Positions 16,491 to 61,702 of a DNA stretch of 64,000 nt are shown here, piece by piece. The number at the start of each line of letters is the position of its first letter. The stretch's first letter is position 1. Below the pieces are notes generated by a model that had not been told where the DNA came from, searched no databases, and worked only from the letters and a program-made list of their open reading frames with translations. Source of the stretch: Flaccisagitta enflata (lineage: Eukaryota); contig OZ231126.1 of NCBI GenBank assembly GCA_965153355.1, forward strand, positions 12,276,001 through 12,340,000, given 5' to 3'. The position numbers were made by a program, and so were the translations under genes.

Positions 16491-17498
16491 CTATGAGGCG
16501 GGATTGGTCGTCTTTTTTCTTTAAGCGACGTTAGTAGGAAGCCTTCTTGACATCTTGACAATTTGCTCCCGACCGAAGTACAGAAATGGAGAGTAAAAAC
16601 GCAGAGAAAGGAAAAAGAAGAGAAGCACCCGTACAACTGGAGGCAGGAAAGATTCATGCTGCTGTCACTGCTGTTGCTGCTGCTCACTGGGATGATTTCA
16701 TAGCAGTTCTAAATTGAATTGCCAGGTTTTTAGAACTTTTTCAATTAGCCTTGAAACAATATTTGATTGAGGAAACACATTTGTGAAGTGAAGTTGATCT
16801 GTTTTGGCCTCTGTGAGTGTGAACTAATTCATAAAAGATTATCTTGTATCTAGTGCCAGTGCCGTGCGTGCAAGTATTCAATCACTGAAAAAATTTACAA
16901 GCTTGCTATGCAACTCATTTCCTTGCTTTGTTGGTCATTCTGCCATTCCCTCTTCCCCCCCTTTAGTTTATGACCTACACTGCCCCTACCAAAATACCCT
17001 TGTGGACTCCTCTATCATGGGTACCGGAATCATCATTGCCTATGTCCATTTGAACTGAGGTAGCTGTGTATCCGGCCTTGTCTTAGAAGGCGCTGAAAAT
17101 TTCAAAGTCATTCCAAAGTGTGAGCCGCGTTAACATAAAGGAAGAGTAAAGAATATAGAAAGAAATTGGTTAAAAGAAGAAAACTGTTGTCTCAGCAAGG
17201 CTCATATAACGTCCATTTCGGCTCAACCATGTATGTGACACATTGGATCCCGGACAAGTAAAAAGTGGAGCCGTTTCGCCCATCTGCACCCAATCTGTCA
17301 GATTCCTACGTGGTGAGCCCCGTCCGTTTCTTCCCATCTGTGACCACCATCTGCAACCATGTATGTGACTTCTTCATCCTGCAGACCTGCACAAATGAAA
17401 AGCGAGTTTTGCTCATCTGCACCCTGTTTCTTCCTACCCTACGGTTACGTGACCTATCCTTTCTTCCATAAGACATCTTCTCCATCTGACTTCTCCTA

Positions 17499-18486
17499 CA
17501 GTATGATTTTTTTCAAATGAAACAAAAGATGACGACATAAATCCTAAACAAATCAACATAATCAAATTCTGAAAAAAACGCCTGAAAGAGTAGGTTAGTG
17601 CATTTATTCATGCCAAATTTCAGCATTCCGACTCAAGTAGTTTTGCTTCAATTTACATTTACAGTGAAGATATCAATTTCTTCCTTCTCCTATGGCAAAG
17701 AAAAAAGGCAAACACTTTGTTTTGCTAATTTTGGCTTAACCAAGGACCTGAATCATAGAAAATCCATGACCGTTTGAAAGCTCTGCAAAAATTCTTCCAA
17801 ACGCGACGTTGCTGGTAATTGTAGCTTAATTCGATTATAAATGGCGAAGGTTTGAAGAAAAAAATCACTGATTGAAAAAAATGATCATTTCAATTTTTTT
17901 CAATAAGTAATTTTTGTTTTTTCATTTTTTTCAATGATGCAGCTCAGGATTGTCTTAGCTACTTGTTATCCATGAGCAAATTAAAGAGCTTCAAATTTTC
18001 TTTAAAATGGGACCAAGAACAAATTTCTGACTCAATGCATTTGATTTTTAAGTTAGAATAAAGATAACCCATGAAAATCACGTTGTGAAATTCCGTATTC
18101 TTGACTACCTAGTCTTCATTCTAATGCCATTTCTAAACGGATAGAGCTAGGATATCCAGCAAGGTCTCATGCGAAAGATCTTTCGCAGAGATTCAAAATG
18201 GTCATAGATTTTGCTATGTTTTTCTCATTGCTTGGATGTTAAACACTGACAAACAAGTAGTTCACTTTTTTTCTTTCGCCATAGTTAAAAAAAAGTTATT
18301 TCGGATGATTCATAGTTTGACTTCAAAAAGCGATTGAGGCTAAACTACTTGAGTCAGAATGCTGAAATTTGGCATGAATAAATGCACTAACCTACTCTTT
18401 CAGGCATTTTTTTCAGAATTTGATTATGTTGATTCGTTTAGGATTTATGTCGTCATCTTTTGTTTCATTTGAAAAAAATCATACTG
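17499..18486. mobile_element. Foldback MITE with long TIRs starting CAGTATGATT (Tc1/mariner-type termini)
   Basis: 17499-~17645 is the near-perfect reverse complement of ~18340-18486. Left flank TA, right flank TT. Same terminal 10 bp as 53788-54302. Confidence 0.85.
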
Positions 18487-18926
18487 TTCCATCTGACTAC
18501 CGAGTCACTTCTCTCCTGTCAGTCCTTCATTTCACTCATTTTACTCCGTGTAAAATTTACTCGCCATGTAAACAGCGCAATGGAACGGATTTTAAAGGAC
18601 CAAACGAATATCTCAAGTTATAGGCGGGATTCAGTAAAAAGCGGTGCGTTGGAGCGGGTTTCAACTGTATCTCCAATGTCCGACGTTCATTCTTTAGTTG
18701 CATCGACATCTAAATGAGGGATATTGTTCCACCTGTCATTCCCATGCTCTTGGCCTGCTCCCAATCCTCTTGTGACCTGATACTCTTCCCTTTATGGTCT
18801 GTTATGTCTCCTTTTCATTCGTTTCTTCGTCGTCGTCTCATTTCTCTTGCTTAGTGCTTACTACCCCCTCCCAAAATCCCTCCCCCGATTCTGATAGATC
18901 CACATGACAGCCCCATTTTTTTACCG

Positions 18927-21094: not shown

Positions 21095-21265
21095 TGTTTC
21101 GAGGGGTCACAATATCATTGCAGACGGGTGGGCACAATCAAACACAACCGCAGTATCTGAAAAGCGTGTTTCGCACTTTTTTACCCAATCATCACAGACG
21201 GACCGACAAACTGGCGGACAGACAAAGGCACAAAGCCTCTTATAGAGTTGCGTCTCAGCATCTAA
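21095..21265 (-). mobile_element. HINE-like element (degenerate), back-to-back with the next copy
   Basis: CCTCTTATAGAGTTGCGTCTCAGCATCTAAA 5' end on the - strand; 3' region (GATATTGTGACC on - strand) matches the end type seen at ~62110. Confidence 0.65.
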
Positions 21266-21288
21266 AGAAGAGGTTAGTTTTTGCATTT

Positions 21289-21536
21289 TTAGATGCGTCC
21301 ACGCATCTTTATGAGAGGCTTTGTCGGTCGTCGGTCCATCCCTGAGTCCGTCTGTCCATAACGCACGAGTCAAAAATGGTTAATACTCAAGAAAATCACC
21401 CAAAATGTTAAGTCATTGCCTCATTCCACATGATTGATGCAATATTGCATCATTCCACATGATTGATGCAATATTGCATCATTGCTAACAAGCTAAACCG
21501 CATGTGGACGCATCGTTGTACCCTCGGGGTACTTGT
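21289..21536 (+). mobile_element. HINE-like element, family A
   Basis: TTTTTAGATGCGTCCACGCATCT; subterminal GGACGCATC; 3' hairpin GTACCCTCGGGGTAC followed by TTGT; internal 29-bp duplication at 21421-21478. Confidence 0.8.
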
Positions 21537-26148: not shown

Positions 26149-26365
26149 AGGTACTGCGCACAACGCAATCCTCCCTATTACTTCTGTACTGGTAACGGGT
26201 CAGGGATCTTTGAAGAAAGGGTCAAGGATCTTCTTGATGATTATTGATTGATCTCAGTCAGTTCTCTTATTCTTTTAGATCTTTTTGGATCTTTCCGGAT
26301 CCAGATCTGGAGCTACTGTTAATGCATCAATCTGATTCAATGCATGACACTCAGTGTTTATATGT

Positions 26366-26434
<69 letters not shown>

Positions 26435-26903
26435 AAAGAATATAGGCTGAAAAGCGCCATGTCAAAACTTCAGAAATTTTTTGCCTCAAAAATTTTTTTG
26501 CTTCAAAATTTTTTCGCTTCAAAATTTTTTTTACCTTCAAAATTTTTCTCCTTTTTAAATTTTTTTGCTTGAAAAATTTTTTCACTTTAAAAAATTTTTT
26601 TGCTTCAAAATTTTTTTTCATTTTAAAATTTTTTTCCTTTGAAATTTTTTTCGCTAAAAAATTTTTTTCCTTTAGAATTTTTTGTGCTTAATTTTTTTTA
26701 CTCGATGATCATTGCGAAAAAATTTTTCTTACTTGATGATTATTGCAAAAAAATTTTTCAAGTGAAGAATTTTTTCAAGCGATGAAATTCAAAAAAGAGA
26801 AAAATTTTAAAGACAAAAAAAATTTTGAAGCAAAAAAATTTTGAAGCAAAAAAATTTTTGTAGCAAAAAATTTTTGAAGCTTTAACATAGTGCTTTTCAG
26901 CTT

Positions 26904-26947
<44 letters not shown>

Positions 26948-27168
26948 TTTCACATGTAAACACTGAGTGTCATGCATTGAATCAGATTGATGCACTAACA
27001 GTAGCTCCGGATCTGGATCCGGAAAGATCCAAAAAGATCTAAAAGAATAAAAGAACTGACTGAGATCAATCAATAATCATCAAGAAGATCCTTAACCCTT
27101 TCTTCAAAGATCCCTGACCCGTTACCAGTACAGAAGTAATAGGGAGGATTGCGTTGTGTGCAGTGCCT
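26149..27168. mobile_element. ~1-kb foldback element
   Basis: Left arm is the reverse complement of the right arm over ~400 bp, including a mirrored (GA)n/(TC)n. Centre is A/T-tract repeats. No clear TSD. Confidence 0.88.
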
Positions 27169-31870: not shown

Positions 31871-32649
31871 TCTTCTTCTTCTTCTTCTTCTTCTTCTTCT
31901 TCTTCTTCTTCTTCTTCTTCTCCTTTACAGCCTGTAACAGTTAAGTAAAATTGACGCTTGAGGCGAACTCTGTTGGCTGTCTTTGCCCCTTGAATTCGCC
32001 ACTTGCCAAATTGGGATCTATCTAAACCATCAGGTACATATTAACAAGGCCAAGTAGGCCAACGATGCGTCCTCTTCTTTGTTTATATGTTCTTTTTTGA
32101 TACGGTCATACTTTGAATTGTCTTTTATGATAGTTTCACATTTAGGGTCTTATTGTATGAGGTGCCATTTCATATGATTTTACTTGTTAACGATTTATGT
32201 GACCTTACTTTATATATCTTCCTTTATATGGTTTTACTTGATGGTTCTACTTTAATCTCCTTAAAAGTGGCTTCTTTGATATAGTCTGATTTTATGCCAT
32301 CATGCTCTGCTTTATTGATCCAGTTTATGAACCTGTATGAGATAGTGACGTTTGCATAAAGCAGTAAAAACATCTTTTATTATAAATAATCTTACTACAG
32401 AAAATGACAAAAAAAATTTATTAAGATCTAGAAATGTTTGCTTTTATAGGGCTACAAATTGTGCACCATAATCTTAAAATGAGAGGTTTGAAAGTCATAG
32501 CTGACATGAAAGATAATCATTAGATCAATGAGATAAAGTTCATGAATTTTAATAAATTGAAAAAATGAAATCTGGTGGTGGGTGGGATGGGGGCTGGCAC
32601 TGATACAAAATAGGAATCTAATATGTACAAATATGGTAATGGGGTTACT

Positions 32650-35600
32650 CTAGAGATGCGAGGACGGACGGACATGCCCTCTTATAGAGATGCGAGGACG
32701 CATCTAAAAATGATATGGTGTGGTTTGCTTGTGATTTATATGTGATATGGCATGGATATAGTGGATTATGATGAATGTGTAACCGACCGACCAACCGACC
32801 GACGGACGGACATGCCCTCTTATAGAGATGCGAGGACGCATCTAAAAATGATATGGTGTGGTTTGCTTGTGATTTATATGTGATATGGCATGGATATAGT
32901 GGATTATGATGAATGTGTAACCGACCGACCAACCGACCGACGGACGGACATGCCCTCTTATAGAGATGCGAGGACGCATCTAAAAATGATATGGTGTGGT
33001 TTGCTTGTGATTTATATGTGATATGGCATGGATATAGTGGATTATGATGAATGTGTAACCGACCGACCAACCGACCGACGGACGGACATGCCCTCTTATA
33101 GAGATGCGAGGACGCATCTAAAAATGATATGGTGTGGTTTGCTTGTGATTTATATGTGATATGGCATGGATATAGTGGATTATGATGAATGTGTAACCGA
33201 CCGACCAACCGACCGACGGACGGACATGCCCTCTTATAGAGATGCGAGGACGCATCTAAAAATGATATGGTGTGGTTTGCTTGTGATTTATATGTGATAT
33301 GGCATGGATATAGTGGATTATGATGAATGTGTAACCGACCGACCAACCGACCGACGGACGGACATGCCCTCTTATAGAGATGCGAGGACGCATCTAAAAA
33401 TGATATGGTGTGGTTTGCTTGTGATTTATATGTGATATGGCATGGATATAGTGGATTATGATGAATGTGTAACCGACCGACCAACCGACCGACGGACGGA
33501 CATGCCCTCTTATAGAGATGCGAGGACGCATCTAAAAATGATATGGTGTGGTTTGCTTGTGATTTATATGTGATATGGCATGGATATAGTGGATTATGAT
33601 GAATGTGTAACCGACGGACCACCGACCGACCGACCAACCGACGGACGGACATGCCCTCTTATAGAGATGCGAGGACGCATCTAATAATGATATGGTGTGG
33701 TTTGCTTGTGATTTATATGTGATATGGCATGGATATAGTGGATTATGATGAATGTGTAACCGACCGACAACCGACCGACGGGGGACACTGCCTCTTATAG
33801 AGATGCGAGGACGCATCTAAAAATGATATGGTGTGGTTTGCTTGTGATTTATATGTGATATGGCATGGATATAGTGGATTATGAGAATGTGTAACCGACT
33901 GACCAACCGGGACGGATGGACGGATATGCCCCTTCTAGAGATGCGATGACGATCTAAAAATGATATGGTGTGGTTTGCTTGTGATTTATATGTGATATGG
34001 CATAGATATAGTGGATTATGATGAATGTGTAACCACAGACCGACCGACGGACGGACATGCCCTCTTATAGAGATGCGAGGACGCATCTAAAAATGATATG
34101 GTGTGGTTTGCTTGTGATTTATATGTGATATGGCATGGATATAGTGGATTATGATGAATGTAACCGACCACCAACCGACACCGACGGACGGACATGCCTT
34201 CTTATAGAGATGCGAGGACGCATCTAAAAATGATATGGTGTGGTTTGCTTTGTGATTTATATGTGATATGGCATGGATATAGTATTATGATGAATGTGTA
34301 ACCGACCACCAACCGACCGACCAACCGACCGACGGACGGACACGCCTCTCTTATAGAGATGCGAGACGCATCTAAAAATGATATGGTGGTTTGCTTGTGA
34401 TTTATATGTGATATGGCATGGATATAGTGGATTATGATGAATGTGTAACCGACCACCCGACCGACGGACGGACATGCTCCTCTTATAGAGATGCGAGGAC
34501 GCATCTAAAAATGATATGTGGTGGTTTGCTTGTGATTGATGTGGCATAGATATAGTGGATTATGATGAATGTGTAACCAACCGACCAATGGACGGATGTA
34601 ATATGTAGAAATATGGTAATGGGGTTACTCCAGAGATGCGAGGACGCAACTAAAAATGATATGGTGTGGTTTGCTTGTGATTTATATGTGATATGGCATG
34701 GATATAGTGGATTATGATGAATGTGTAACCGACCGACTCACCATCCCGGACTGACGGATCTGACATGCTCCTTCTTATAGAGATGCGAGGACGCATCTAA
34801 AAATGATATGGTGTGGTTTGTTTGTAGATTTACCAGTGTGAATGGAGTTCAGACGTGTGCTCTTCCGATGTGATATAGTGGATTATGATGAATGTGTAAC
34901 CGACCGACCAACCGACTCCCACGGACGGACATGCTCCTCTTCTTATAGAGATGCGAGACATCTAAAAATGATATGGTGTGGTTTGCTTGTGATTTATATG
35001 TGATATGGCATGGATATAGTGGATTATGATGAATGTGTAACCGACCGACCAACCGACCGACGGACGGACATGCCCTCTTATAGAGATGCGAGGACGCATC
35101 TAAAAATGATATGGTGTGGTTTGCTTGTGATTTATATGTGATATGGCATGGATATAGTGGATTATGATGAATGTGTAACCGACCGACCAACCGACCGACG
35201 GACGGACATGCCCTCTTATAGAGATGCGAGGACGCATCTAAAAATGATATGGTGTGGTTTGCTTGTGATTTATATGTGATATGGCATGGATATAGTGGAT
35301 TATGATGAATGTGTAACCGACCGACCAACCGACCGACGGACGGACATGCCCTCTTATAGAGATGCGAGGACGCATCTAAAAATGATATGGTGTGGTTTGC
35401 TTGTGATTTATATGTGATATGGCATGGATATAGTGGATTATGATGAATGTGTAACCGACCAACAACCGACCGACGGACGGATACATGTCTCTTTCTTATA
35501 GAGATGCGAGGACGCATCTAAAAATGATATGGTGTGGTTTGCTTGTGATTTATATGTGATATGGCATGGATATAGTGGATTATGATGAATGTGTAACCGA

Positions 35601-38600
35601 CCGACCAACCAACCGACGGACGGACATGCCCTCTTATAGAGATGCGAGGACGCATCTAAAAATGATATGGTGTGGTTTGCTTGTGATTTATATGTGATAT
35701 GGCATGGATATGGATTATGATGAATGTGTAACCGACCGACTAACCGACCGGGACAGACGGACATGCTCCTTCTATAGAGAGCGAGGACGCATCTAAAAAT
35801 GATATGGTGTATTTGGCTTGTGATTTATATGTGATATGGCATGGATATAGTGGATTATGATGAATGTAACCGATCGACCAACCGACCACTTGACGGACAT
35901 GTTCTTTCTATAGAGATGCGAGGACGATATCTAAAATGATATGGTGTGGTTTGCTTGTGATTTATATGTGATATGGCATGGATATAGGATTATGATGCAC
36001 GTGTAACCGACCACCAACCGACCGACGGACGGACAGCCTTTATAGAGATGCGAGGACGCATCTAAAAATGATATGGTGTGGTTTGTTTGTGATTTATATG
36101 TGATATGGCATGGATATAGTGGATTATGATGAATGTGTAACTAACCGACCAACGGACCGACGTTTTTGACGGACATGTTCTTTCTTATAGAGATGAGACG
36201 CATCTAAAATGATATGGGTGTGGTTTGCTTGTGATTTATATGTGATAGTGGCATGTGATAGAGGATTATGATGAATGTGTAACCGACCGACCAACCGACC
36301 GACGGACGGAAGTGTTCTTTTTATAGAGATGCGAGGACGCATCTAAAAATGATATGGTGTGGTTTGTTTGTGATTTATATGTGATATGGCATGGATATAG
36401 TGGATTATGATGAATGTGTAACCTAACCAACCAACGGACGGACATGCCCTCTTATAGAGATGCGAGGACGCATCTAAAAATGATATGGTGTGGTTTTGCT
36501 TGTGATTATATATGTATATGGCATGATAGTGGGATTATGATGAATGTGTAACCGACCGACCAACCGACCGACGTACGGACATGCCTCTTTTTATAGAGAT
36601 GCGAGGACGCATCTAAAAATGATATGGTGTGGTTTGCTTGTGATTTATATGTGATATGGCATGGATATAGTGGATTATGATGAATGTGTAACCGACCGAC
36701 CAACCGACCGACGGACGGACATGCCCTCTTATAGAGATGCGAGGACGCATCTAAAAATGATATGGTGTGGTTTGCTTGTGATTTATATGTGATATGGCAT
36801 GGATATAGTGGATTATGAAGAATGTGTAACCGACCGACCAACCGACCGACCAACCGACCGACGGACGGACATGCCCTCTTATAGAGATGCGAGGACGCAT
36901 CTAAAAATGATATGGTGTGGTTTGCTTGTGATTTATATGTGATATGGCATGGATATAGTGGATTATGATGAATGTGTAACCGACCGACCAACCGACCGAC
37001 GGACGGACATGCCCTCTTATAGAGATGCGAGGACGCATCTAAAAATGATATGGTGTGGTTTGCTTGTGATTTATATGTGATATGGCATGGATATAGTGGA
37101 TTATGATGAATGTGTAACCGACCGACCAACCGACCGACGGACGGACATGCCCTCTTATAGAGATGCGAGGACGCATCTAAAAATGATATGGTGTGGTTTG
37201 CTTGAGATTTATATGTGATATGGCATGGATATAGTGGATTATGATGAATGACCAACCGACCGATGTAATATGTAGAAATATGGTAATGGGGTTACTCCAG
37301 AGATGCGAGGACGCATCAAAAATGATATGGTGTGGTTTGCTTGTGATTTATATGTGATATGGCATGGATATAGTGGATTATGATGAATGTGTAACCGACC
37401 GACCAACCGACCGACGGACGGACATGCCCTCTTATAGAGATGCGAGGACGCATCTAAAAAAAATGATATGGTGTGGTTTGCCAGGATTATATGTGATATG
37501 GCATGGATATAGTGGATTATGATGAATGTAACTGAACCAACAGACCGACCGACGGACGAACATGCCCTCTTATAGAGATGCAAGGACGCATCTAAAAATG
37601 ATATGGTGTGGTTTGCTTGTGATTTATATGTGATATGGCATGGATATAGTGGATTATGATGAATGTGGGCAATCGACTCCACTGCAACCGACCGACTTGA
37701 CGGATATGCTCCTTCTTATAGAGATGAGACGCATCTAAAAATGATATGGTGTGGTTGGTTTGTGATTTATATATGTGATATGGCATGGATATAGTGGATT
37801 ATGATGTGTAATGTGTAACCGACCGACCAACCGACCGAGGACGGACATGCCCTTCATAGAGATGCGAGGACGCATCTAAAAATGATATGGTGTGGTTTGC
37901 TTGTGATTTATATGTGATAGTGCATGGATATAGTGATTATGACAATGTAAATCGACCGACCAACCGACCGATGTAATATGTAGAAATATGGTAATGGTCT
38001 TATAGAGATGCGAGGACGCATCTAAAAATGATATGGTGTGGTTTGCTTGTGATTTATATGTGATATGGCATGGATATAGTGGATTATGATGAATGTGTAA
38101 CCGACCGACCAACCGACCGACGGACGGACATGCCCTCTTATAGAGATGCGAGGACGCATCTAAAAATGATATGGTGTGGTTTGCTTGTGATTTATATGTG
38201 ATATGGCATGGATATAGTGGATTATGATGAATGTGTAACCGACCGACCAACCGACCGACGGACGGACATGCCCTCTTATAGAGATGCGAGGACGCATCTA
38301 AAAATGATATGGTGTGGTTTGCTTGTGATTTATATGTGATATGGCATGGATATAGTGGATTATGATGAATGTGCAACCGACCGACCAACCGACCGACTGA
38401 CGGACATGCCCTTCTTATAGAGTATTTATGACTCGCATCTAAAATGATATGGTGTGGTTTGCTTGTGATTATTATGTGATATGGCATGGATATAGTGGAT
38501 TATGGCTGAATGTAACCGACCGACTAACCGATCGACGGACGGGACATGTTTCTTTCTTATAGAGATGCGAGGACGCATCTAAAATGATTATGGTGTGGTT

Positions 38601-41569
38601 TGTTTGTGATTTATATGTGATATGGCATGGATATAGTGGATTATGATGAATGTGTAACCGACCGACCAACCGACCGACTAACCGACCGACTGACGGACAT
38701 GCCCTCTTCAAAGAGATGCGAGGACGCATCTAAAATGATAAGGGGTGGTCAGTGAGTGATTTGAGATGGATAAAGTGTTTTTTTTTGGAAAGTGGGTAAT
38801 GGACACACGGACGGACATATGGACGGACACAACCGACCAACCGACGGACGGACATGCCTTTCTTATAGAGATGCGAGGACGTATTCCAAAAATATGGTGT
38901 GGTTTGCTTGTGATTTATATGTGATATGGCATGGATATAGTGGATTATGATGAATGTGTAACCGACCGACCAACCGACCGACGGACGGACATGCCCTCTT
39001 ATAGAGATGCGAGGACGCATCTAAAAATGATATGGTGTGGTTTGCTTGTGATTTATATGTGATATGGCATGGATATAGTGGATTATGATGAATGGGTAAC
39101 TGTTCCACTAACCTAATTTGACGGACGGATATGCCCTTTTCTATAGAGATGCGAGGACGCATCTAAAAATGATATGGTGTGGTTTGCTTGTGATTTATAT
39201 GTGATATGGCATGGATATAGTGGATTATGATGAATGTGTAACCGACCGACCAACCGACCGACGGACGGACATGCCCTCTTATAGAGATGCGAGGACGCAT
39301 CTAAAAATGATATGGTGTGGTTTGCTTGTGATTTATATGTGATATGGCATGGATATAGTGGATTATGATGAATGTGTAACCGACCGACCAACCGACCGAC
39401 GGACGGACATGCCCTCTTATAGAGTTGCGAGGACGCATCTAAAAATGATATGGTGTGGTTTGCTTGTGATTTATATGTGATATGGCATGGATATAGTGGA
39501 TTATGATGAATGTGTAACCCACCGACCGAACCGATCGACGTGACGGACATGTTCTTCTTATAGAGATGCTTATGACGCATCTAAAATGATATGGGGTGGT
39601 TTGCTCGTGATTGATATGTGATATGGCAAGGATATAGTCGATTATGATTAATGTGTAACCGACCGACCAACCGACCGACGGACGGACATGTTCTTCATAG
39701 AAAGGACGCATCTAAAAATGATATGGGGTGGTTTGCTTGTGATTTATATGTGATATGGCATGGATATATTGGATTATGATGAATGTGTAACCGACCGACC
39801 AACCGACCGACGGACGGACATGTCCTCTTATAGAGATGCGAGGACGCATCTAAAAATGATATGGTGTGGTTTGCTTGTGATTTATATGTGATATGGCATG
39901 GATATAGTGGATTATGATGAATGTGTAACCAACCGACCGACCAACGGACAGACATGCCCTCTTATAGCTAGCGAGGATGCATCTAAAAATGATATGGTGT
40001 GCTTTGCTTGTGATTTATATGTGATATGGTATGGATATAGTGGATTATGATGAATCTAATCACCGACCTAACCGAACGACGGACGGACATGCCTTTCTTA
40101 TAGAGATGCGAGGACGCATCTAAAATGATATGGTGTGGTTTGCTTGTGATTTATATGTGATATGGCATAGATATAGTGGATTATGATGAATGTGTAACCG
40201 ACCGACCAACCAACCGACGGACGACGGACATGCCCTTCTTATAGATGCGAGGACGTGACTAAAAATGATATGGGGTGGTTTGCTTGTGATTTATATGTGA
40301 TATGGCATGGATATAGTGGATTATGATGAATGTGTAACCGACCGACCAACCGACCGACGGACGGATATGCCCTCTTAGAGATGCGAGGACCATCTAAAAT
40401 GATATGGTGTACTTGACAGATTTATATGTGATATGGCATGGATATAGTGGATTATGATGGATGTGTAACCGATCAATTAACCGACCGACGGACGGATATG
40501 TCTCCTCTTATAGAGATGTGTGGACGCATCTTAAAATGATATGGTGTGGTTTGCTTGTGATTTATATGTGATATGGCATGGATATAGTGGATTATGAGAT
40601 CGGAACCGACCGACCAACTGCACTGACGGACGGACATGCCCTCTCATAGAGATGCGAGGACGCATCTAAAATGATATGTGGTGGTTTGTTGTGATTTATA
40701 TGTGATATGGCATGGATATAGTGGATTATGATGAATGTAGAACCACCGACCAACCCACCGACGTGACGGACATGCTCTTTCTTCAAAGAGATGCGAGGAC
40801 GCATCTAAAATGATAAGGGGTGGTCAGTGAGTGATTTGAGATGGATAAAGTGTTTTTTTTTGGAAAGTGGGTAATGGACACACGGATTATGATGAATGTG
40901 TAACCGACCGACCAACCTACCGACCGACGGACGGACATGCTCCTTCTATAGAGACACAGGACGCATCAAAAATGATATGGTGTGGTTTGCTTGTGATTTA
41001 TATGTGATATGGCATGGATATAGTGGATTATGATGAATGTGTAACCGACCGACCGACCGACCGACCGACCAACCGACGGACGGACATGCCCTCATATAGA
41101 GATGCGAGGACGCATCTAAAAATGATATGTGGTGGTTTGCTTGTGATTCATGTGTGATATGGCATGGATATAGTGGATTATGATGAATGTGTAACCGACC
41201 GACCGACCGACCGACCGAACCGACGGACGGACATGCCCTCTTATAGAGATGCGAGGACGCATCTAAAAATGATATGGTGTGGTTTGCTTGTGATTTATAT
41301 GTGATATGGCATGGATATAGTGGATTATGATGAATGTGTAACCGACCGACCGACCGACCGACCGACCAACCGACGGACGGACATGCCCTCATATAGAGAT
41401 GCGAGGACGCATCTAAAAATGATATGTGGTGGTTTGCTTGTGATTCATGTGTGATATGGCATGGATATAGTGGATTATGATGAATGTGTAACCGACCGAC
41501 CGACCGACCGACCGACCAACCGACGGACGGACATGCCCTCATATAGAGATGCGAGGACGCATCTAAAAA
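32650..41569. repeat. Satellite array, 138-bp unit, ~64 copies by length
   Basis: TTATAGAGATGCG recurs at 32682 and 32820 (period 138). Copies are near-identical at the left and noisier in the middle. Confidence 0.97.
34838..34871 (+). other. Illumina TruSeq adapter/read-2 primer sequence (assembly contamination)
   Basis: GTGAATGGAGTTCAGACGTGTGCTCTTCCGATGT vs GTGACTGGAGTTCAGACGTGTGCTCTTCCGATCT: 32/34 identical. Confidence 0.93.
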
Positions 41570-41795
41570 TGAGCATCAGTTGGTTGCTTGGAGTTGTTTG
41601 AGTTTGGATTTGGGATCCCCTACGGTTTCGGTACCGCCCCGTTTTATCGTCCCCGGTCGGCCTCCTTCGTTGGAGGGCCCGAATCATCGACTTCGGACGT
41701 TTTCTGATTTTAAACACTTTGTTTGTAATTTTATGAGCGCATGAGCATGAGTCAAGTTCTATCGCACGCGCCACTTTTTAGCTTGCTAGTCTAAT

Positions 41796-44300: not shown

Positions 44301-45290
44301 CTGGCTGATTACGCAACAGGCTCAAATCGTTATTCCATTTGAACAAGCGCGGCAGTGACTTCCTAATATCATAATATGCAGCCACTGTCGGGCTTATACA
44401 ATCGCGCTGTTGGGGCTTATAAGTCATTCGTTCCTACGCGGAGTGTACCACCCGACGTGGCCGTGGGACTGAGGTAGAGGCAGAGGCTGAGCGTCGAGAC
44501 TCGAGACAGACGGTCGATTGGCAGTCTCGTGTCGCGACATCCATCCACAAAAACGAAGATCTGATTAGAAGAATGATTGATGGAAATTACGAGTAATAGT
44601 CAATTAATAAGTTTGGACATTTTACGATGTTGAACATCTTGTTAGGCCGTGTTCTAGGATCACCCTCTTCTTCTCTTTTTAGGTTGGATCAAGAGTCAAG
44701 AACAAAGAGCTAATAATACAGCTGGTTTTCCTATAATTCTTACGATCCTAGATTTGTGGGTTAGAAGGGTTACGATTGTAGGTTTTCTAGACTCTTTTAC
44801 AATGGGAAAATGTTTTTTTTCTTCATAACCCAAAAAGTGCTAAATCAATTTCTTTTATTTCTTGGGTCAAGAATGATCTTAAGATTACTAACCTTAGCCA
44901 AAAGGAATTGTCATCGCCACTCTTCTATAAACAGGTGAAATATGACAATGAATGTGGCTTTCTACAATGCTTACGATTCTAGGTTTTCTTGCCTAGAAAG
45001 CTTACAATTCTAGAAAATTGCATAGAAAGCTTACGATTCTAGGTCTTTTATGACTTTGTCTCTCAATGAAATGTGAAACTGCCATAAGTCGATCTTTTGC
45101 TCATGATTCAATCTTTTGCTCATTATTTTAGTCACTTTCTATGAGACGGTGTATTGGTAGGCCTGTTTTCAGGTCCATAAAACGGTAACCCGAATTTTTG
45201 TCTGACATGAAAAGGAAAAAAAAATAATTTGATGCCCAACCACAAATGACTACGTCTCAAATTACTTCAGCGAGTCGCGCTTATTCTTTT

Positions 45291-45490
45291 TTAGTCGCGT
45301 GCACGCGACTCTACAACCCGCTTTGTCCGTCGGTTGGTCTGTCGGTCTGTCGGTTGGTCCGTCACACTTTACTTTTTTTTATGATTTTATTTTTTTGACG
45401 TCACCGTTCCTGCTCAAATGGTCTGGTGACCTCAAATATGGCCCCTTCCCACCCGCACGCGACTTCGGTAGCCGTGTATCCGGCCTTGTT
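45291..45490 (+). mobile_element. HINE-like element, family B (nested)
   Basis: AGTCGCGTGCACGCGACT hairpin, subterminal GCACGCGACT, 3' GCCGTGTATCCGGCCTTGTT. Confidence 0.88.
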
Positions 45491-46111
45491 TATTCTATTG
45501 TTCACTTTCTTGATACGAGATCCATTTGTATAAACATAGCACTGTTACTATAGGTGTTGATTCTTTGGTCAGTGTGTTGACAGATCCAATATTCATCACC
45601 ATTGTTTTTTTGCAGAGGTTACACCAGTATCGTGAAAGTTATAGGGCACATTTTATTTGATAACATATATTACTGCCTTTTTTTAAACACCTCAATGTAA
45701 CAAAGCATAACAAAAGAAATCTAGAGGAATTCAGAAGAACTTTAGCGAGAAATTCAGAGAACTTTAGCGAGAAATTCAGAGAAATTCAGAGAAATTCAGA
45801 CTTATAGGTGTTTTTTTTGTTTTCTCAGATCCTTGAGCGTCTCTGGACACAAAGCATGTGATATGCAATAAATAACTGATTATATTCGGGCATTTGTCTT
45901 CAAAAGAGGAGAGTTTCTGATGGAGAAAAATTAATTGGCGCCCGATGGATCTTTTTTGCAAGATGAATTGACAAAAATTGATACGGTATCTCAGTCAGCA
46001 ATATGACAAATCCTTAGAGCCTGATTCCTCTTAGTCTCTTTGGCCATGAATCTTTCAAAAAATAGATATGAAAAGCACAGTAGTAACCCACACTAACATA
46101 TGTAAAAAGAC

Positions 46112-46393
46112 CAGGGGTGTATATAATTGAGTAGCTTTCGATTTTACCCCCCTGCCTTTGATTTTCTTCTCTGCATGAATTTCTTCCCCATAAGGCATTG
46201 AAACAGTGTAGTTAAGGATTATATAGTGTTTAACTGTGTTTTACTGATCAGTATTTATGATTTGGTACTGCCAAAAGTTGTTTTCCCCCAATTTTTTTCT
46301 CTCTTTTTTTCCCCTTTGATTTCCTTCCCCTTCTCCAAACCCTTTGATTCCCCCCCCCACGGGAGGGGGGGAACTAAAAAATATACAGGCCTG
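46112..46393. mobile_element. hAT-like MITE (nested)
   Basis: CAGGGGTGTATAT / ATATACAGGCCTG TIRs; flanks AAAAAGAC and CAAAGGAC (6/8 match). Confidence 0.6.
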
Positions 46394-47303
46394 CAAAGGA
46401 CTAAAAACAATTTCAATCATAACTGATTTCAAAGGACCAACAAATTATATCTGTTTAAGACTGGTTTAAGCTTAAAAAAGAAATTGAAAAAAATCAAGCT
46501 GAAAGAGCAAGATTTAGCTTATGTTAAAAGAAAAATTCTGTTCAATGCAGGTCCGTTGGAGCGGGATTTAACCATTTTACTGATGAAGGAATTTTTAAAA
46601 AATGACATGAAGAGACTGGGATTTTAGATCTGTTTTTAGCAGATATCTATCATAATATCATGATAATAAGAATGAAATACAATTTCTACCAGATTGGCCA
46701 TGCAAATAGAATGCTGTACTACAAAGAATATTTAGATACCGGATCATTTGCAGAGAGCAAAATTCAGAAGTACAGTCCCAACTCAGGCTCCGCAGAGTCC
46801 AACTGAAGTTTTCCACGATGGTTCAGCGCATTAGAAAAGTAAATTGAAAAGCATCTTGTCATATAGTAAGAATGTTTAGCCAGTAATAAGTAGTTCTTAT
46901 TGAAGCACGAACATAATTGTAAGCAAAAACAGAAATGCAAATCAGTATGAGAGTTATAATCAGAGTACAATGGGAACATGGGAGAGAGGGTGTAAAAAAA
47001 GGAATCAAGGGCGATAAATGGGGAAATTATGAACGGGGCAGCTGTGCATAGTTTCCAATGTTTGATATATTTAATCAAGTGATGATCAAATCTGAAATAA
47101 GCTATAACACCAATTCCATTTCTAACGCGCCACAACCTACATCCTTTGATCAACAATTAATATGTCATGATGTGGAAAACCTGGGTGAGGTTGGAAGCAT
47201 GAACAATGAATTTTGCTCTTAGAATTGATCCTTGCTATCCTGTCATTCCATCGGTCTTTTTGCCTCTTTTTGTTTTGGTCGGTCTCTGGCTTAGATCAAC
47301 TTA

Positions 47304-47589
47304 GGGCGTGTTTCTATTAATGGCCAAAAACGCATTTGTCCCCGTCTAACCCGTTCACAGTGTGAACACATATTCATGAATTCCAACTGACCCACAAGGG
47401 AGTTGGCGAAGTGAGTGAGCGAGCCCGTGAACAGAGCGAGCAAGCAAAGCAAGCGAGCAAAGCGAAGGGGAACGCTGCGTAGGGACTTCCTACTAGTGAG
47501 TAAGCGGATTGAGCGGTGTGAGCGAACGAACTTAGCGAGCGACCTAGTGGCCCGTAAAAAAATGATTGTCTCTGACTAGAAACACCCCC
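47304..47589. mobile_element. PIF/Harbinger (Tourist-like) MITE (nested)
   Basis: TTA|GGGCGTGTTTCTA ... TAGAAACACCCCC|TAA; internal GCGA/GCAA repeats. Confidence 0.72.
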
Positions 47590-48659
47590 TAAGATCGTTA
47601 TGTTTCTGGTTTACAGGCTTGTTTTGCGCTTACTATGGACCCTAACCAGGAAAATGATGTGTCAAAGAGAATGAAATGAATTTCCCAAATTGCTCGAGCA
47701 ACATTTCTTGAAAAATGTCTGTCAGTAAATTACCATTCATTCACGACATGCCTGGCGGGTACATTTGAATTTCAATGGTCTTGTTTCTTTTTTTTTCTTT
47801 TTTTTTTTTTTTGCGAGGTTTGCTATTAGGCACCATCTACCAATGAGCATGACCCAAACGGTGGACCGAGCGTAAGGATGCATGTTAAACAGTTTTTCTC
47901 AAAAATTCTTGTAAATCACTTTTTGTTGCAAATTTCATGGATGCAACAAATCATTCAAGTTGATAATCGAAAAGCTAGGCCTGGTAAAGCCCAAGAAGAG
48001 CGCCTCATTTGCATAATTGACAGACCAACCGACCAACCAACTGCCCAACTAGGGGACCCATCAACGGACACACCAACAGCCACACCGTCTTAAAGAGGAC
48101 ACACATAGAAAGGAGGCTACTTCATCCATCGGCAAGATGTGAAAAAGCCTGATGCCATGCATAAAAGTATTTCTCTCTCTGAAATTGAAGCCTACTAATC
48201 CATGGACTAACCTGTGGGTAATGAATCCCAGAAGACCTAGAATCGTAAGCTTTCTATGCAAGTTTCTAGAATCGTAAGCTTTCTAAGCAAGAAAACCTAG
48301 AATCGTAAGCATTGTAGAAAGCCACATTTATCATCACATTTCACCTATTTATAGAAGAGTGGCGATGACAATTTCTTTTGGCAAAGGTAAGTGGTCTCAT
48401 TATTGATATTGTCCCAAGAAATAAAAAAAATCGATTTAGCACTTTTTGGGTTATGAAGGAAAAACCCATTTTCCCATTGTAAAAGAGTCTAGAAAACCTA
48501 CAATTGTAACCCTTCTAACCCACAAATCTAGGATCGTAAGAATTATAGGATAACCAGCTGTAATAATCCCTTCTTCGTCGATGAATCGTTTGATAGGAAC
48601 AAGAAATCTTTTAAGTTTAATGAGACTTCGTCGAGAAATTTAAAGAGACAAATGGTTGG

Positions 48660-50586
48660 CACTGTGCTTTTAAAAAGATTCTCAGTGGAAAGTCATATAA
48701 CTGTGGGTTTTTCTGCATTTTTGAGCAGTATCGGGATGTAAGAGCATGTAACTAGCAAAAATAAAATCATTCCCCGAGCGCTTTTTGAGTAATCTTCAAA
48801 ATAAAAAAAAATTAAACCTATTTGTAATGCAGATTCTAATGAGTTGTATTGGCTCATTTTTTGATTCCATATTGTTATTCTGTACAAAATTTCCTTTCAT
48901 TTGATAGGTCACACTATATGGTTTTATAAAAAAATTAGGTTTTCATATTTTCAGCCACCGTTACTTTTTCACACATCTCTGGATACCCCCCCAAAGAGAA
49001 TCGAAAATACCATTTTTTCTGACTGTGCTATTTGTCTTCAGGAACATGTGGACTACTAAAAAAAACAAAAAAATTCTTCTGAAATTCTTTCATTTATTTC
49101 ACTTTTTAGGTAAAAAAAGAGCATTTTTAGCACATTTTAAGCATTAAATTGTTTATGCAGCTTAAAAAATCTGAAAAAATACTGGAAATGTATGGCAATA
49201 GATTGAATATACATGTTTTTACCCTTCATAAACAGTTTTTGTAAGTATCATACAGACTAAAGCTTAAAAATAGCCTAAAAATTACAAAATATGGCTTTTT
49301 TCAGTATTTTTCAGTCTAAATTTGTTTTTACAGCATTTCAACTTCTAAGAAATCCTAGAAAAGTGTAGTAGTAGTTTGAGCTTAACTACTTTTACCATGA
49401 ACAATCAGTAAATTTTGATTTTTTTAAGTTTAGAGCTAAAAAATAGCAAAAAAATATTGTTTTTTTAAGCATCTTAAAGCAATTAATTATTCATGCACTT
49501 TTGTAAATCCAAAAAAATACTGGAAATGTGTGGCAATAGATAGAATATATATGTTGAAATGCTGTATTAAAAAATTTGAGATTTTAAAATACTGAAAAAA
49601 GCCATATTTTGGCATTTTTACATCATTTTTAAACTTTAATCTTTAAGATATCTAGAAGAACTTTTTGTGAAAGGTAAAAACATGTATGTTCTATCTATTG
49701 CCACACATTTCCAGTATTTTTTTGGCTTTATAAGAGTGCATGAATAATCATTTGCTTTAAGATGCTTAAAAAAACAATATTTTACTATTTTTTAGTTATT
49801 TTTTAACTCTAAACCTAAAGAAATCAAAATTTACTGATTGTTCAGGGTAAAAGTAGTTAAGCTCAGACTACTACTAAACTTTCCTAGGATTTTTTGGGAG
49901 TTAAAATCCTGTAAAAACAAATTTAGACTGAAAAATACTAAAAAAAACCATATTTTGTCATTTTTAGGCTATTTTTAAGCTCTAATCTGTATGATATTTA
50001 AAAAAAATGTTTATGAAGGGTAAAAACGTGTATATTCTATCTATTGCCATGCATTTCCAGTATTTTTTTGGAATTTCTAAGCTGCATGAACAATTTTATG
50101 CCCAAAAAGTGCTAAAAATACCCTTTTTTTACCTAAAAAGTGAAACAAATGAAAAAATTTCAGAAGAATTTTTTTGTTTTTTGTTTTTTTTAGTAGCTCA
50201 CATGTTCCTGAAGACAAATAGCACAGTCAGAAAAAATGGTATTTTCGATTCTCTTTGGGGGGTATCCAGAGATGTGTGTTTTTGTAACGGTGACTCAAAA
50301 AATGAAAATTTCAATTCTTTGCAAAAGTATAGAGTGCGACCTATCAAATGAAAGGGAATTTTGCATAGATTAACAATATAGAATCAGAAATTTAGTCATC
50401 ACATCCCTAAAGAATCTGCATTGAAATTTGGTCTATTTTTTTCTGATTTTGAAGGTTACTCAAAAAGCGCTTGGGGAATGATTTTGTTTTTGCTAGTTAC
50501 ATGCTCTTACACCCCAATACTGCTCAAAAATGCAGAAAAACCCACAGTTAAATGACTTTTCACTCATAATTGTTTTAAAAGCAGTG
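48660..50586. mobile_element. 1.9-kb foldback element with CACTG/CAGTG termini (CMC/Chapaev-like)
   Basis: Arms ~48660-49555 and ~49678-50586 are reverse complements; TTGG flanks both ends (4-bp TSD). Confidence 0.85.
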
Positions 50587-52500: not shown

Positions 52501-53100
52501 CTCACAGCAAGATCAGGTGAAAAGTAACATTACTGTAGGTTTTTTCATTGTTTTGTATAGAATCTGAGCTCTATTTACTGGAACTAATGATGACAAAATC
52601 TTGTCAAGAGCGCTTTTTGAGATTTTCATAAAAAATGATGGTTTTTAGCCTTCTTTTTCCTGTAGATTCAACCAGGTATTTCAAAAATACTTTTTGTCAG
52701 CAAATTCGTAATCCTGGTGAAATTTCCATTCATTTGATAGGTCGCAACATATACTTTTACATAAAAATAAGAATTTCAGTTTTTAAGCCACCGTTGCAAA
52801 ATTGTAACGGTGGCTTAAAAATGGAAAATTGCAGTTTTGGACAAAATTGTATAGTGCGACCTATCAAATGAATGGTAATTTCATCAGGAATTCAAATATG
52901 CTGTCAAAAAAGATTTTCAAAGTACCCAGTAGAATCTACATTGAAAAAAAGGGTAAAAACCATCTATTTTTGTGAAAATCTCAAAAATCGCTCTTGACAA
53001 AATTTTATCTTCAATTGTTCCAGTAAATGGAGCTCAGATTCTATACAAAACAATGAAAAAACCTACAGAAATGTTACTTTTCTCCGGATCTGGCTGTGAG
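52501..53100. mobile_element. 600-bp palindromic MITE related to 48660-50586
   Basis: Whole element self-complementary about ~52800; shares ATTTGATAGGTCGCA, GCCACCGTT and GAGCGCTTTTTGAG motifs with the 48.7-kb element. Confidence 0.85.
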
Positions 53101-55747: not shown

Positions 55748-56017
55748 ACCGAGCTAATTTCTACTACTTCACTTGTTTAAAGGTTCTCGCATTTTGATGT
55801 GGACTCGTTGGATACGTATCGTCTTCGTGGGTTTCGTCACGTCCATCAAGTCGCATTTGGTTCGCCACGTCAGTCGACATCAAAAGCATAGAACATTACT
55901 GTGAAAAGAGACTGCTTACGCTTCTTTCATAGCAGTAAAACGAACTGCTTGATTATCAAAATGTGATATAACGGATATCGTCGGATACGCAGTTATTCGG
56001 TTATCAGAACAGTCACG

Positions 56018-56469
56018 ATGGAAAATAATAAAGAAACCGTCAATGAGCTTCTTTTCTTCATTCAAAATAAACTTCATTGTACGACGAAAGATGCGATCGT
56101 TGAAATTTGCGTTAAATTTTATTCGCTAGAGGAGATCCAATCTGCGATATCATGTTTGGAGTCAACACTAAAAATACGTCTTTCCAAGCGAAACAAATCC
56201 GACGATATTCAGCTGAAGCTAGTCACGGATGTCTACGACAAAATCTGGTCGATCGATGCTTCATCAACTCAGATACGATTTCTCGCCGCGGATCTGTCTC
56301 GAATCCTGAGAGAAACCAACAACTCAGAATCCGGCGCAACGATTGAACAAATGCTAGCGTCAGTTCACAATCTTAGGACGACCGTCTCTCAACTTCAATC
56401 CAGAATGGTGACGAGAGACGTTCTAGACGCGACCATCATGCGATTCTGCAGCAACAACAACGTCAACAC

Positions 56470-56522
<53 letters not shown>

Positions 56523-57235
56523 GCAACAACAACAACAACAACTACGATCGGTCTCTCCGCGAAATGCCGAGTGGCGCCGATAGCGATAATGGCTCGTTTG
56601 GTGGCTTGTCTCTTCATCCATCCAACTTGCCACCTCATCTTCCGTCAGCGCCCTTAGCGCCTCTATCTCCCTCTGCGCCTTCGATTTCGCAGGGAACGCC
56701 TGGGACCTTTGCGTCTACAGCAGCTGCTGCTTCTGCTGTGGCGGCAGCAGCACCGTCGTCTGCGGCGATATCCGCCTCCTTGTCGCTAGATAAAAAGCGG
56801 CAACAGGAAGTCGTACAACGTCAACGCGGGAAAGTTGGAGGAGGTGGTGGAGGAGGAGGTGGAGGAGGAGGAGGAAGACGCGATGGTAGAAAGAATATAA
56901 ATCGAGATAAAAACTCCGCTATTATCATCGGACAGAACGTCAACGCCGGCGTTATCTCGTGGAAAGGCGCTGATCTCACAGTGTCTCGCTACATCGGCCG
57001 TGTTGCGCTTGACACGACGGCCGAGGAAATTCGTTCTTGGCTCGAATCAAAAAACGTCGAGGTTGTTTCAATTGAAGCAATTCCAACGAAACATCAACGC
57101 TTCTCATCATTCAAGCTGATTATAAAGAAAGCGCAACTACAGATAATCAGCGAGCGCAACTTCTGGCCCATGGGTGTTCTTGTCGGTCCATGGTGGCCTC
57201 CAAAGGCTGCTACGGAAATTGAACCAACTCTTTGA
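56018..57235 (+). CDS. LINE ORF1 protein, 405 aa
   Basis: Intact ORF just upstream of ORF2. NELLFFIQNK...FYSLEEI N-terminal block, coiled coil, poly-Asn/Ala/Gly linker, RRM-like C-terminus (YIGRV...SFKL...FWPMGV) resembling invertebrate CR1/L2-group ORF1s. Confidence 0.85.
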
Positions 57236-57240
57236 TAAAG

Positions 57241-60200: not shown

Positions 60201-61037
60201 ATTGTCTACTGGTACTTAAACATGAATGTGCGAGTTTTGTGGCGGCAGACTTTTAGTAAATATTTTCGCGTTCTCTCTGGTACAAAACAGGGTGGGGTCT
60301 TAAGTCCCAAAATTTTCACGCTTTATATGGATGAACTCATTCGGCGTCTACGAGATAAAAATATTGGTTGTCATGTCATGAAACTATTTCTTGCTTGTTT
60401 GCTATACGCTGACGACATGTGTTTGATAGCGCCTAGCAGAGGTGCAATGCAGAAAATGCTTGATATTTGTGTAGAATTTTGTGAAGAGTTCTGTCTTTCA
60501 TTTAACATAAAAAAATCCAAAGTTATGATTTTTGGTAACATGAAAGGTAAGGCTGTTACTCCCCTTACCCTTTACAATAAGCCCCTTGAATTTGTCTCCC
60601 AGTGGACTTATCTTGGATCAACAATTGTCGCCGGAGTATCTTTATCTTTTTCATGTAGAAAGGAACTTTCAAATTTTTACCGTTCTATTAATTCATTACT
60701 TACCTCGATACAAAAACCTAATGAATTAGTACTAATGCATCTTATGTACGCCAACTGCGTCCCCGGCCTCGCCCACGCTGCAGAGGTGAAACTTCTTCCC
60801 AACAATGAACTGAACGACTGCAACGTCGCCCTCAACAACGGAATTCGCCGAATTTTCTCATACAACAGATGGGAAAGCACGAGATACTTGCGTCAACAAC
60901 TGTCGTTTCCCAGTATAACGGAAATCTTTCACTCGCGTAGCCGAAAATTTCTTACTAAATGCTTGAATGGCGAGACACAAAACGAAGTTGTGCATCGCCT
61001 TGCAATTTACACAAAATTGGAAAATGTAGAAGATTAA
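57241..61037 (+). pseudogene. LINE ORF2 (APE endonuclease + reverse transcriptase), interrupted; segments 57241-59237 and 60185-61037 rejoin to ~949 aa
   Basis: EN motifs HNING, VQEHWL, GRPFGG, MDFN, SDHLPV; RT motifs YRPITL, QFGY, FLDCSKAFDTV, GTKQGGVLSP, YADD, YLG. No other stops or frameshifts. Confidence 0.93.
59238..60184 (+). mobile_element. HINE/DINE-1-like family A insertion in ORF2
   Basis: Starts in a T-run with AGATGCGTCCTCGCATCT; subterminal AGGACGCATCT; ends TTGGCCTTG(TT); no TSD; interior has a 9-bp TGTCTCTTA repeat and a G-rich tract. Confidence 0.9.
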
Positions 61038-61702
61038 AATTGCTAGTTTATAGTCTTAGACAGTTTTTGGTGTGTTGTGGTTTGCTACTGTCACTTCTTT
61101 GACGAATATAATATCATTCATACCACCCTTGTTTGCATAACAGCGATTCAGTGATCACGAAGGCGTTGACATTCTTACCCACAACCGCGATTCCGATCAA
61201 GGCGACGATTGCGAAACACTTCGGCGAATTCATTGTTCTCTTCTTCCGTCAAAAAACGTTTTAGACGAAATCGCGAATTTCTGTTGAAGGTAAGCGTGAC
61301 TTCGATAAGATGTCAGTTTAACTTTGTGTTCAGTTGTCTTGGTGACCGTTGTTTATTTGTTTTTCTCCTCACAATTTGAAAAAAAAAAAGATTTTTCTTG
61401 CTATGATTTGACTGGACGTATGAATAAGCGTGAAACCGGGCGTAGAGACGGAAAACACTAGTCTTGTTCGGGTCGTCGGAAATTGTACCTCTCAATGTGA
61501 GTGAATGAATGAGTTTTTCGTTGCGGACATGCAAATCTACACCTCGCCGTAGCGTTCGGTCGGTCCGTTTGTCAGTCGGTCCGTAACATTTTTGAATGTT
61601 TTCGCATTTCTGCTCCGGCCCAACCGCGACTGTTGCCGTTTATCCGGTCTCGTGTTTTTTCTGTATCTCTATTAATTTGTTTTCTCCCTTTTTTTTCCTT
61701 TT

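What the first reader, a model, noticed from the sequence alone, without database searches (positions are those of the whole stretch)
32043..41569. A 9-kb satellite made of transposon 5' ends, enclosed in one giant HINE-like element
Seen: on the - strand each 138-bp unit is T-run + hairpin AGATGCG-TCCT-CGCATCT + CTATAAGAGGG + GTCC/GTCG microsatellite + ~75 bp. That start is the 5' terminus of the element inserted at 59238. The array stops exactly on such a terminus (41569), and the only matching 3' terminus lies ~600 bp beyond the other edge (32043). Known: Helentron-associated DINE-1/HINE elements seed satellites, usually from internal repeats. Inference: here the terminal hairpin itself was amplified ~64-fold for one 3' end, by repeated rolling-circle re-initiation, self-insertion at T-runs or unequal exchange. 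This would give a polymer of putative Rep-binding sites.
Basis: partly seen in the sequence, partly recalled or inferred. Interest (0 to 1): 0.75.

Follow-up and report, generated by a model that had tools for sequence, protein, structure and literature searches.

The report
Helentron transposons with repeated start ends
The 9-kb repeat is one non-coding rolling-circle transposon whose start end is copied 63 times, and it belongs to a lineage in this genome whose protein-coding members also carry such repeats, a known type of structure seen here in an unusually clean, inherited form.

Summary
Confirmed: 63 full ~138-bp units, each starting at a HINE 5' terminus, then one body and one 3' end. 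The same body carries 1, 2, 6, 7, 15 or 63 units at other loci. Of 40 Rep-bearing Helentrons examined, 13 carry arrays of 4 to at least 29 units, 20 have one 5' end, and 7 showed none. Ten of the 13 keep open frames over 2,000 aa. Arrays map to one clade with a nested loss. Near-identical sisters differ at least five-fold in unit number; arrays carry fixed private variants and swap bodies at the last hairpin. One sample lacks the element's 3' junction at this site, suggesting a single polymorphic insertion. Mid-array variation is mostly assembly noise. 'Many 5' ends, one 3' end' is already reported for plant Helitrons and Fusarium Helitron2. Amplification tied to transposition is favoured, not shown.

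The parts
41547..41569 (-). Outer 5' terminus: T5 run, 5' subterminal inverted repeat and its hairpin; element boundary
   Evidence: left flank single-copy
40973..41569 (-). Units 1-4, 147-150-bp variant; unit 1 matches a unit of the L066/L065 subfamily (true chimera or polishing artefact)
32711..41569 (-). Array of 63 full 5'-end units (T-run, hairpin, CTATAAGAGGG, GTCC/GTCG microsatellite, ~72-bp spacer); 15 equal the 138-bp consensus
34843..34869 (-). Adapter-like piece inside one unit (identity recalled); sign of assembly polishing noise
32651..32710 (-). Last hairpin region: here a partial unit followed by a partial hairpin; relatives have one half-copy of the hairpin (T-run + hairpin without ATAAGAGG/microsatellite) running into GGAGT/TGAGT
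32075..32650 (-). Non-coding body; a 35-60-bp stretch near its start is homologous to the 5' non-coding region of array-bearing coding Helentrons (77-91%)
32064..32074 (-). 3' subterminal inverted repeat GAGGACGCATC, complementary to the 5' terminus
32043..32060 (-). 3' short stem-loop (GGCC-TACTT-GGCC) and terminal TTGTT; last 34 bp identical to the 3' end of coding Helentron L122/L123
59235..60186 (+). Separate single-ended HINE with the same 5' terminus and a different body, inserted in a T-run within a LINE endonuclease/RT ORF (comparison element)

Best explanation
The 9.5-kb segment 32043-41569 is a single non-autonomous Helentron (HINE) derived from a Helentron lineage whose ancestor gained an internal half-copy of its 5' terminal hairpin about 115-140 bp inside the element (shown by structure and tree). 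The 5' segment between the two ~25-bp direct repeats is a complete origin unit, and it expands into arrays (shown). Most likely mechanism (inferred): during Rep/helicase-driven rolling-circle transposition, recombination or strand transfer between the repeated hairpins makes a circle that holds one origin unit but no 3' terminator. Rolling that circle gives a uniform concatemer, which is rejoined to a body at the last hairpin and inserted at a TT site. This resets the array to one unit type and a new length in each lineage. After insertion, ordinary mutation and unequal exchange erode or reshuffle it (inferred). Mobilisation is in trans by coding Helentrons that share the termini (partners shown, activity not shown).
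For: Same body with n = 1 (6 loci), 2, >=4, 6, 7, 15 and 63 units; most start at a T-run hairpin (L064 is cut at its 5' end) and flanks are unrelated except for the duplicated pair L061/L064. Coding partners: L122/123 has an identical 5' hairpin, a 34-of-34 identical 3' end and UCH + Helitron_like_N + PIF1 + endonuclease domains; array-bearing L112/113 and L132/133 have the same domains. Of the 40 Rep matches listed, 13 have arrays, 20 a single 5' end and 7 none found. Arrays fall in one clade (FastTree support 1.0) with a nested single-ended clade. The internal half-hairpin signature occurs 157 times (control 0). In 20 sampled sites, 19 have at least one upstream unit, 13 have two or more, and none begins cleanly at the half-hairpin. 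Sisters L136/L140 (~0.4% apart in Rep DNA) have >=26 vs 5 units; L149/L151 have >=6 vs >=29. Related arrays differ by variants fixed across their units (L191 6 of 7 identical vs L140 5 of 5; L138/L141 124 bp vs L202 116 bp), and spacers and bodies are reassorted at the last hairpin. Long arrays have pristine 5' cores and short ones decayed cores (n>=7: 0-1 mismatches in 6 loci; n<=3: median 3 in 11 loci; p = 0.012). In run X2 a 384-nt flank contig matches to 32044 and does not continue into the element; in X1 the flank contig ends exactly there.
Against: No circle, concatemer or Rep cleavage was observed, and unequal exchange between the same direct repeats predicts the same register. Variant units are shared between loci (L061 units 2 and 10 with L062 unit 7) and are interspersed within L061, so some arrays were inherited as multi-unit blocks rather than reset. 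Six of 20 sampled elements have only one unit. Short-read polishing can homogenise units, so within-array identity may be overstated. The age test is small (17 loci; two n=4 loci and one without a unit left out) and uses 33 bases. The empty allele rests on contig lengths: the letters were not shown and the record orientation is unverified. The Rep sample was seeded with an array-bearing element (40 of 95 candidates).
Confidence: 0.58

Rival explanations
1. Same element identity, but the array is an ordinary host-driven minisatellite: unequal crossing-over, slippage or break repair between the two ~25-bp direct repeats expands and homogenises the unit in place, and transposition only copies whatever array the donor has.
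For: The register follows trivially from the direct repeat. Interspersed shared variants in L061 and the block copy L061/L064. Other internal tandem repeats in related bodies (79-bp-scale repeats in L065). Body-spacer reassortment could be ectopic recombination at the hairpin.
Against: Long arrays sit on the least decayed elements, not the oldest. Fixed differences between arrays of near-identical sisters need fast whole-array turnover. A 63-unit array lies at a site that seems still polymorphic.
Confidence: 0.3
2. Arrays are built by repeated self-insertion of elements into the 5' T-run of an earlier copy, with transposition from the outermost 5' end to the first 3' end (the Fusarium model).
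For: These elements do insert into each other's T-runs: another HINE sits in the last T-run of L073, and a head-to-tail HINE pair lies at 61700-62109. One such event could have created the original internal half-hairpin.
Against: Repeated events should give mixed units and lengths. Units are uniform within an element and end at one fixed point. The 20 single-ended coding elements have no arrays although 6,162 exact 5' termini are available.
Confidence: 0.05
3. The 9-kb length, or the joining of array to flanks, is an assembly artefact (collapsed or inflated repeat).
For: Noisy middle units, an adapter-like insert, body fragments inside units, and outer units of another subfamily.
Against: The same architecture appears with clean sequence at many loci. 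Both edges fall on exact element termini. The X2 contig length fits the two flanks being neighbours (259 nt beyond the site vs about 250-259 expected).
Confidence: 0.07

Closest known systems
DINE-1/HINE non-autonomous Helentrons and their coding partners (Thomas et al. 2014, PMC4067079; passages read)
   Same: 5' subterminal inverted repeat with a nearby inverted repeat, microsatellite, 3' subterminal repeat and stem-loop, T-rich/TT insertion, coding partner with Rep, helicase and endonuclease.
   Different: There the tandem repeats are central, between the end modules; here the repeat unit contains the 5' terminus itself, and coding elements carry it too.
Fusarium oxysporum Helitron2 elements with multiple 5' termini (Chellapan et al. 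2016, PMC5148889; passages read)
   Same: Several short (<200 bp) 5' termini with one 3' terminus, copied to new sites by transposition; Helitron2-type ends.
   Different: The passages describe duplications of 31-85 nt, mostly in partial or non-autonomous copies, explained by self-insertion. Here there are up to 63 uniform units, a fixed internal half-hairpin, and intact coding elements across a clade.
Plant Helitron tandem arrays (Xiong, Dooner and Du 2016; not read, known from passages in PMC12628747 and PMC8268682)
   Same: Many 5' ends with one 3' end, several to hundreds of repeats; the proposed route is loss of the terminator by recombination between repeated sequence, then rolling-circle amplification.
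   Different: Described as partly decayed and truncated, and centromeric by the paper's title. Here: Helentrons with Helitron2-type ends, dispersed, often with long open frames, with element-specific units.
Oyster Cg_HINE elements carrying satellite-like arrays (PMC7492417, first of 7 parts read; PMC8268682 passages)
   Same: HINEs as carriers of long arrays (up to 89 monomers element-associated).
   Different: Those arrays are central repeats that do not include the terminus.

Membership tests
HINE / non-autonomous Helentron | Subterminal inverted repeats (family rule: at least 11 identical bp) | tested here: met
   11-bp 3' repeat at 32074-32064 is complementary to the 5' terminus
HINE / non-autonomous Helentron | 5' inverted repeat forming a hairpin, followed by a microsatellite (DINE-1 type) | tested here: met
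   7-bp stem, z -4.1; GTCC/GTCG run
HINE / non-autonomous Helentron | Short 3' stem-loop near the end | tested here: inconclusive
   4-bp stem present and shared with relatives, but folding z is only -1.45, 19 of 200 shuffles as good
HINE / non-autonomous Helentron | Insertion in TT/T-rich site without target modification | tested here: inconclusive
   T-runs at both ends here and in relatives; the empty allele is inferred from contig ends only; the metagenome pattern search found 0
HINE / non-autonomous Helentron | Coding partner (Rep + helicase + endonuclease) with the same termini | tested here: met
   L122/123, L112/113, L132/133
HINE / non-autonomous Helentron | No coding capacity | tested here: met
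   Only read-through frames of the repeat; no polyA RNA reads on 31930-32642 in about 6% of one run; no Rfam match
HINE with central satellite repeats (Cg_HINE, DINE-TR type) | Array lies between the end modules and excludes the terminus | tested here: not met
   Every unit starts with the 5' terminus
Multiple-5'/single-3' Helitron arrays (Xiong 2016; Chellapan 2016) | Repeated 5' ends with one 3' end | tested here: met
Multiple-5'/single-3' Helitron arrays (Xiong 2016; Chellapan 2016) | Centromeric location (plant arrays) | not tested
   No centromere data; signature sites are spread along the contigs listed
Canonical Helitron1 | 5' TC and 3' CTRR ends, AT target | tested here: not met
   Ends are T-run/AG and TTGTT
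Free-standing satellite DNA | Array independent of element ends | tested here: not met
   Bounded by element termini; 47 of 88 exact spacer matches in the assembly lie in this array, the rest in short element-linked arrays
Rolling-circle origin amplification | Rep cleavage at internal hairpins and unit-length circles | not testable with these tools
   Needs biochemistry or circular-DNA sequencing

The most novel reading that the evidence does not exclude
The internal half-hairpin is a working Rep cut/termination site. The element releases its own ~115-140-nt origin as a minicircle, rolls it, and re-attaches the product to a body. The result would be an exchangeable, self-amplifying origin cassette that multiplies transposase-loading sites, gives a copying advantage in cis, and has been kept through the diversification of a Helentron clade.
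Probability: 0.22. Interest if true: 0.8.

Novelty: new variant of a known kind. Interest (0 to 1): 0.56.

Why it matters
The rolling-circle model for arrays with many 5' ends and one 3' end was proposed from decayed plant copies and, as far as the passages I read show, has not been tested. This genome has apparently intact coding Helentrons with clean arrays, close relatives without them, a defined ~25-bp sequence that separates the two, and non-coding passengers. That makes the model directly testable: delete or add the half-hairpin and count units in new insertions. It also shows a route from transposon origin to dispersed satellite-like DNA: at least 1,690 array-type junctions among 6,162 exact 5' termini (the first pattern can also match some lone ends by chance).

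Tried and rejected
Host exon beside the insertion: splice-like signals at about 31930-32033 were noticed, but no RNA reads lie there and no credible ORF; dropped. Empty site in JGI metagenome contigs: 0 matches. Paralogous empty site in the genome: the left flank is single-copy. Structured RNA: no Rfam hit. Protein-coding repeat: the stop-free frame of the unit is read-through only. Dating the array by unit identity: 15 identical units cannot be used, because polishing may homogenise them. Singleton rates in units vs bodies were mixed (L063 1.2% vs 1.1%, L062 0.26% vs 5.5%) and do not separate growth in place from growth at insertion. Of 20 Rep loci first fetched, only 4 showed this 5' end within the fetched stretch. 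Literature searches found no description of coding Helentrons with clade-wide 5'-end arrays. The library lacks most subscription papers (Xiong 2016 and Thomas & Pritham 2015 were not read), supplements were not opened, and Repbase/Dfam were not searched, so absence from print is not established. PMC11934779, PMC12001565, PMC13286980 and PMC10288648 (passages) added nothing specific.
Full report
Observation. The array is real: 138-bp period, 32663-41572, 63.4 copies. On the - strand it splits into 63 full units from 41569 to 32711 and a terminal partial unit. Each unit starts with a T-run and a 7-bp-stem hairpin (z -4.1), then CTATAAGAGGG, a GTCC/GTCG microsatellite and a ~72-bp spacer. This start equals the 5' end of the element at 59235-60186, which interrupts a LINE ORF. 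A 600-bp body and one 3' end (11-bp inverted repeat at 32074-32064, short stem-loop, TTGTT) follow. Fifteen of 63 units equal the consensus. The rest are indel-rich (415 indel columns, 286 substitutions), one contains an adapter-like piece (identity recalled) and three contain the start of the body, so mid-array variation is largely assembly noise. A similar adapter-like piece lies in another array (L197).

The family. The window lies in a 794-Mb, 9-contig eukaryotic genome; a marine metagenome run covers the flank, and a marine invertebrate is my inference. The body has 45 matches among 40 scored of 242 candidates. Among the 31 loci examined, those with the body start show [5' unit]n + a further T-run/hairpin lacking ATAAGAGG and the microsatellite + body, with n = 1 (L010, L012, L013, L014, L017, L074), 2 (L073), at least 4 (L064, cut at its 5' end), 6 (L063), 7 (L062) and 15 (L061). 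The same unit also sits on other bodies (L065/66, L069/70, L067/72) and in older, deleted forms. The window holds 47 of the 88 exact spacer matches in the assembly.

One insertion. The left flank is single-copy. On the right flank, a 384-nt contig from run X2 (depth 114) matches 31930-32044 without differences and does not continue into the element, and depth stays flat over the flank. In X1 the flank contig stops exactly at 32044. If the record is numbered on its own strand, 259 letters lie beyond the site; joining to 41570 and ending in the (AG)n run at 41799 predicts about 250-259. The letters were not shown and contigs drop rare variants, so a polymorphic single insertion at TT is inferred, not proven.

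Coding partners. PF14214 gave 150 matches among 273 candidates, many in frames of 2,000-3,600 aa. Four of 20 fetched loci had the identical 5' terminus. L122/123 has a 2,509-aa frame with UCH, Helitron_like_N, PIF1 and endonuclease domains and a 3' end identical to the window's over 34 bp. L112/113 and L132/133 have the same domains and carry arrays of four 135-bp and eleven 116-bp 5' units. Of the 40 Rep matches listed (40 of 95 candidates, seeded with L132), 13 have arrays of about 4 to at least 29 units, 20 have one 5' end and 7 showed none in the fetched stretch. Ten of the 13 have open frames over 2,000 aa. In a tree of 1.5 kb of Rep DNA (26 of the 40 plus 4 outgroup elements; L153 and L157-L169 left out) the arrays fall in one clade, support 1.0, with a nested single-ended clade (support 1.0; its link to L149/L151 0.85), and the L122 group lies outside. 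One gain and one loss is the simplest reading. The window's body start is homologous to the 5' non-coding region of the array-bearing elements.

Genome-wide. The half-hairpin signature has 157 exact matches (control 0). In 20 sites (about every fifth of the first 100 listed) 19 have an upstream unit: 6 with one, 7 with two to four, 6 with seven or more. One is truncated, and none starts cleanly at the half-hairpin, so the half-copy does not appear to act as a free 5' end. There are 6,162 exact 5' termini and 1,690 with the array-type junction.

Mechanism. For a link to transposition: sisters about 0.4% apart in Rep DNA have 5 vs at least 26 units; related arrays differ by variants fixed over their units, and spacers and bodies are reassorted at the last hairpin; long arrays have intact 5' cores and short ones decayed cores (p = 0.012, 17 loci). 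In the only reconstituted Helitron whose paper I looked at, the left end is essential, the right end is not strictly needed, and circles are intermediates (PMC5876387 passages); that this holds for Helentrons is an assumption. Against: variant units are shared between loci and interspersed, polishing can homogenise units, and unequal exchange gives the same register. I put amplification coupled to rolling-circle transposition at 0.58, host-driven exchange in place at 0.30, an assembly artefact of length or linkage at 0.07, and repeated self-insertion at 0.05. The identity as a HINE of this lineage is much firmer than the mechanism (about 0.9).

Comparison. The ends meet the HINE/Helentron definition (PMC4067079 passages), but the repeat includes the terminus, unlike central HINE repeats (PMC7492417, first part; PMC8268682 passages). 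Many 5' ends with one 3' end are reported in plant Helitrons (Xiong 2016, seen only through PMC12628747 and PMC8268682) and in Fusarium Helitron2 (PMC5148889 passages). Seven searches found no report of coding Helentrons with clade-wide, element-specific arrays seeded by a fixed internal half-hairpin; the library is incomplete and supplements were not opened. Earlier scan notes had nothing for this genome or sequence; word search gave other HINE/satellite cases in other genomes, none with this design as summarised.

Verdict. Real, a new variant of a known kind. The window's array is the longest example I saw of a lineage-wide design, which is of more interest than the single locus because it makes the rolling-circle array model testable. 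Interest 0.56.

Noticed in passing
window 32740 (runs X1 and X2): Summed contig depth on the spacer is about 78,800 vs flank 91 in X1 and about 11,200 vs flank 114 in X2, hinting at a large difference in unit number between two samples; the tool warns that this depth is not copy number.
   Followed up: no
window 40973-41569 and units at 40811-40972, 38736-38891: The outer four units match the L065/L066 subfamily, and two units hold a spacer resembling that of the coding elements' arrays: real chimerism or mis-polishing.
   Followed up: partly
window 55967-61037: LINE with ORF1 and an endonuclease/RT ORF (recognised by eye) split by the single-ended HINE at 59235-60186, whose body has 9-bp and G-rich repeats.
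   Followed up: partly
window 61700-62109 and 62251-62421: Head-to-tail pair (215-bp spacing, 97% identical) of a different HINE family, plus a further copy; other HINE 5' ends at 10208, 21241-21291 (back to back), 25630, 45288, 51455, 53414.
   Followed up: no
G000 genome-wide: At least 150 Rep-helicase matches, many in open frames of 2,000-3,600 aa, from several divergent groups: an unusually rich, apparently recent rolling-circle transposon load. Three Helentrons tested carry an N-terminal UCH (ubiquitin hydrolase) domain.
   Followed up: partly
L143 (C6:62537456-62545455) and L061: Arrays interrupted by 550-700-bp inserts; in L143 it starts just after a hairpin.
   Followed up: no
L073:2740-2915: A different HINE is nested exactly in the T-run of the last hairpin.
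   Followed up: no
window 44714-48565, 48665-50583, 52501-53100, 26149-27168, 17498-18487: Several long inverted-repeat pairs (foldback or MITE-like elements), including a 299-bp near-palindrome at 52501-53100.
   Followed up: no
G000:C1:43287960-43290326, C1:28904660-28909312, C1:14044682-14047073: Other long 5'-end arrays with 128-132-bp units on the same contig.
   Followed up: partly
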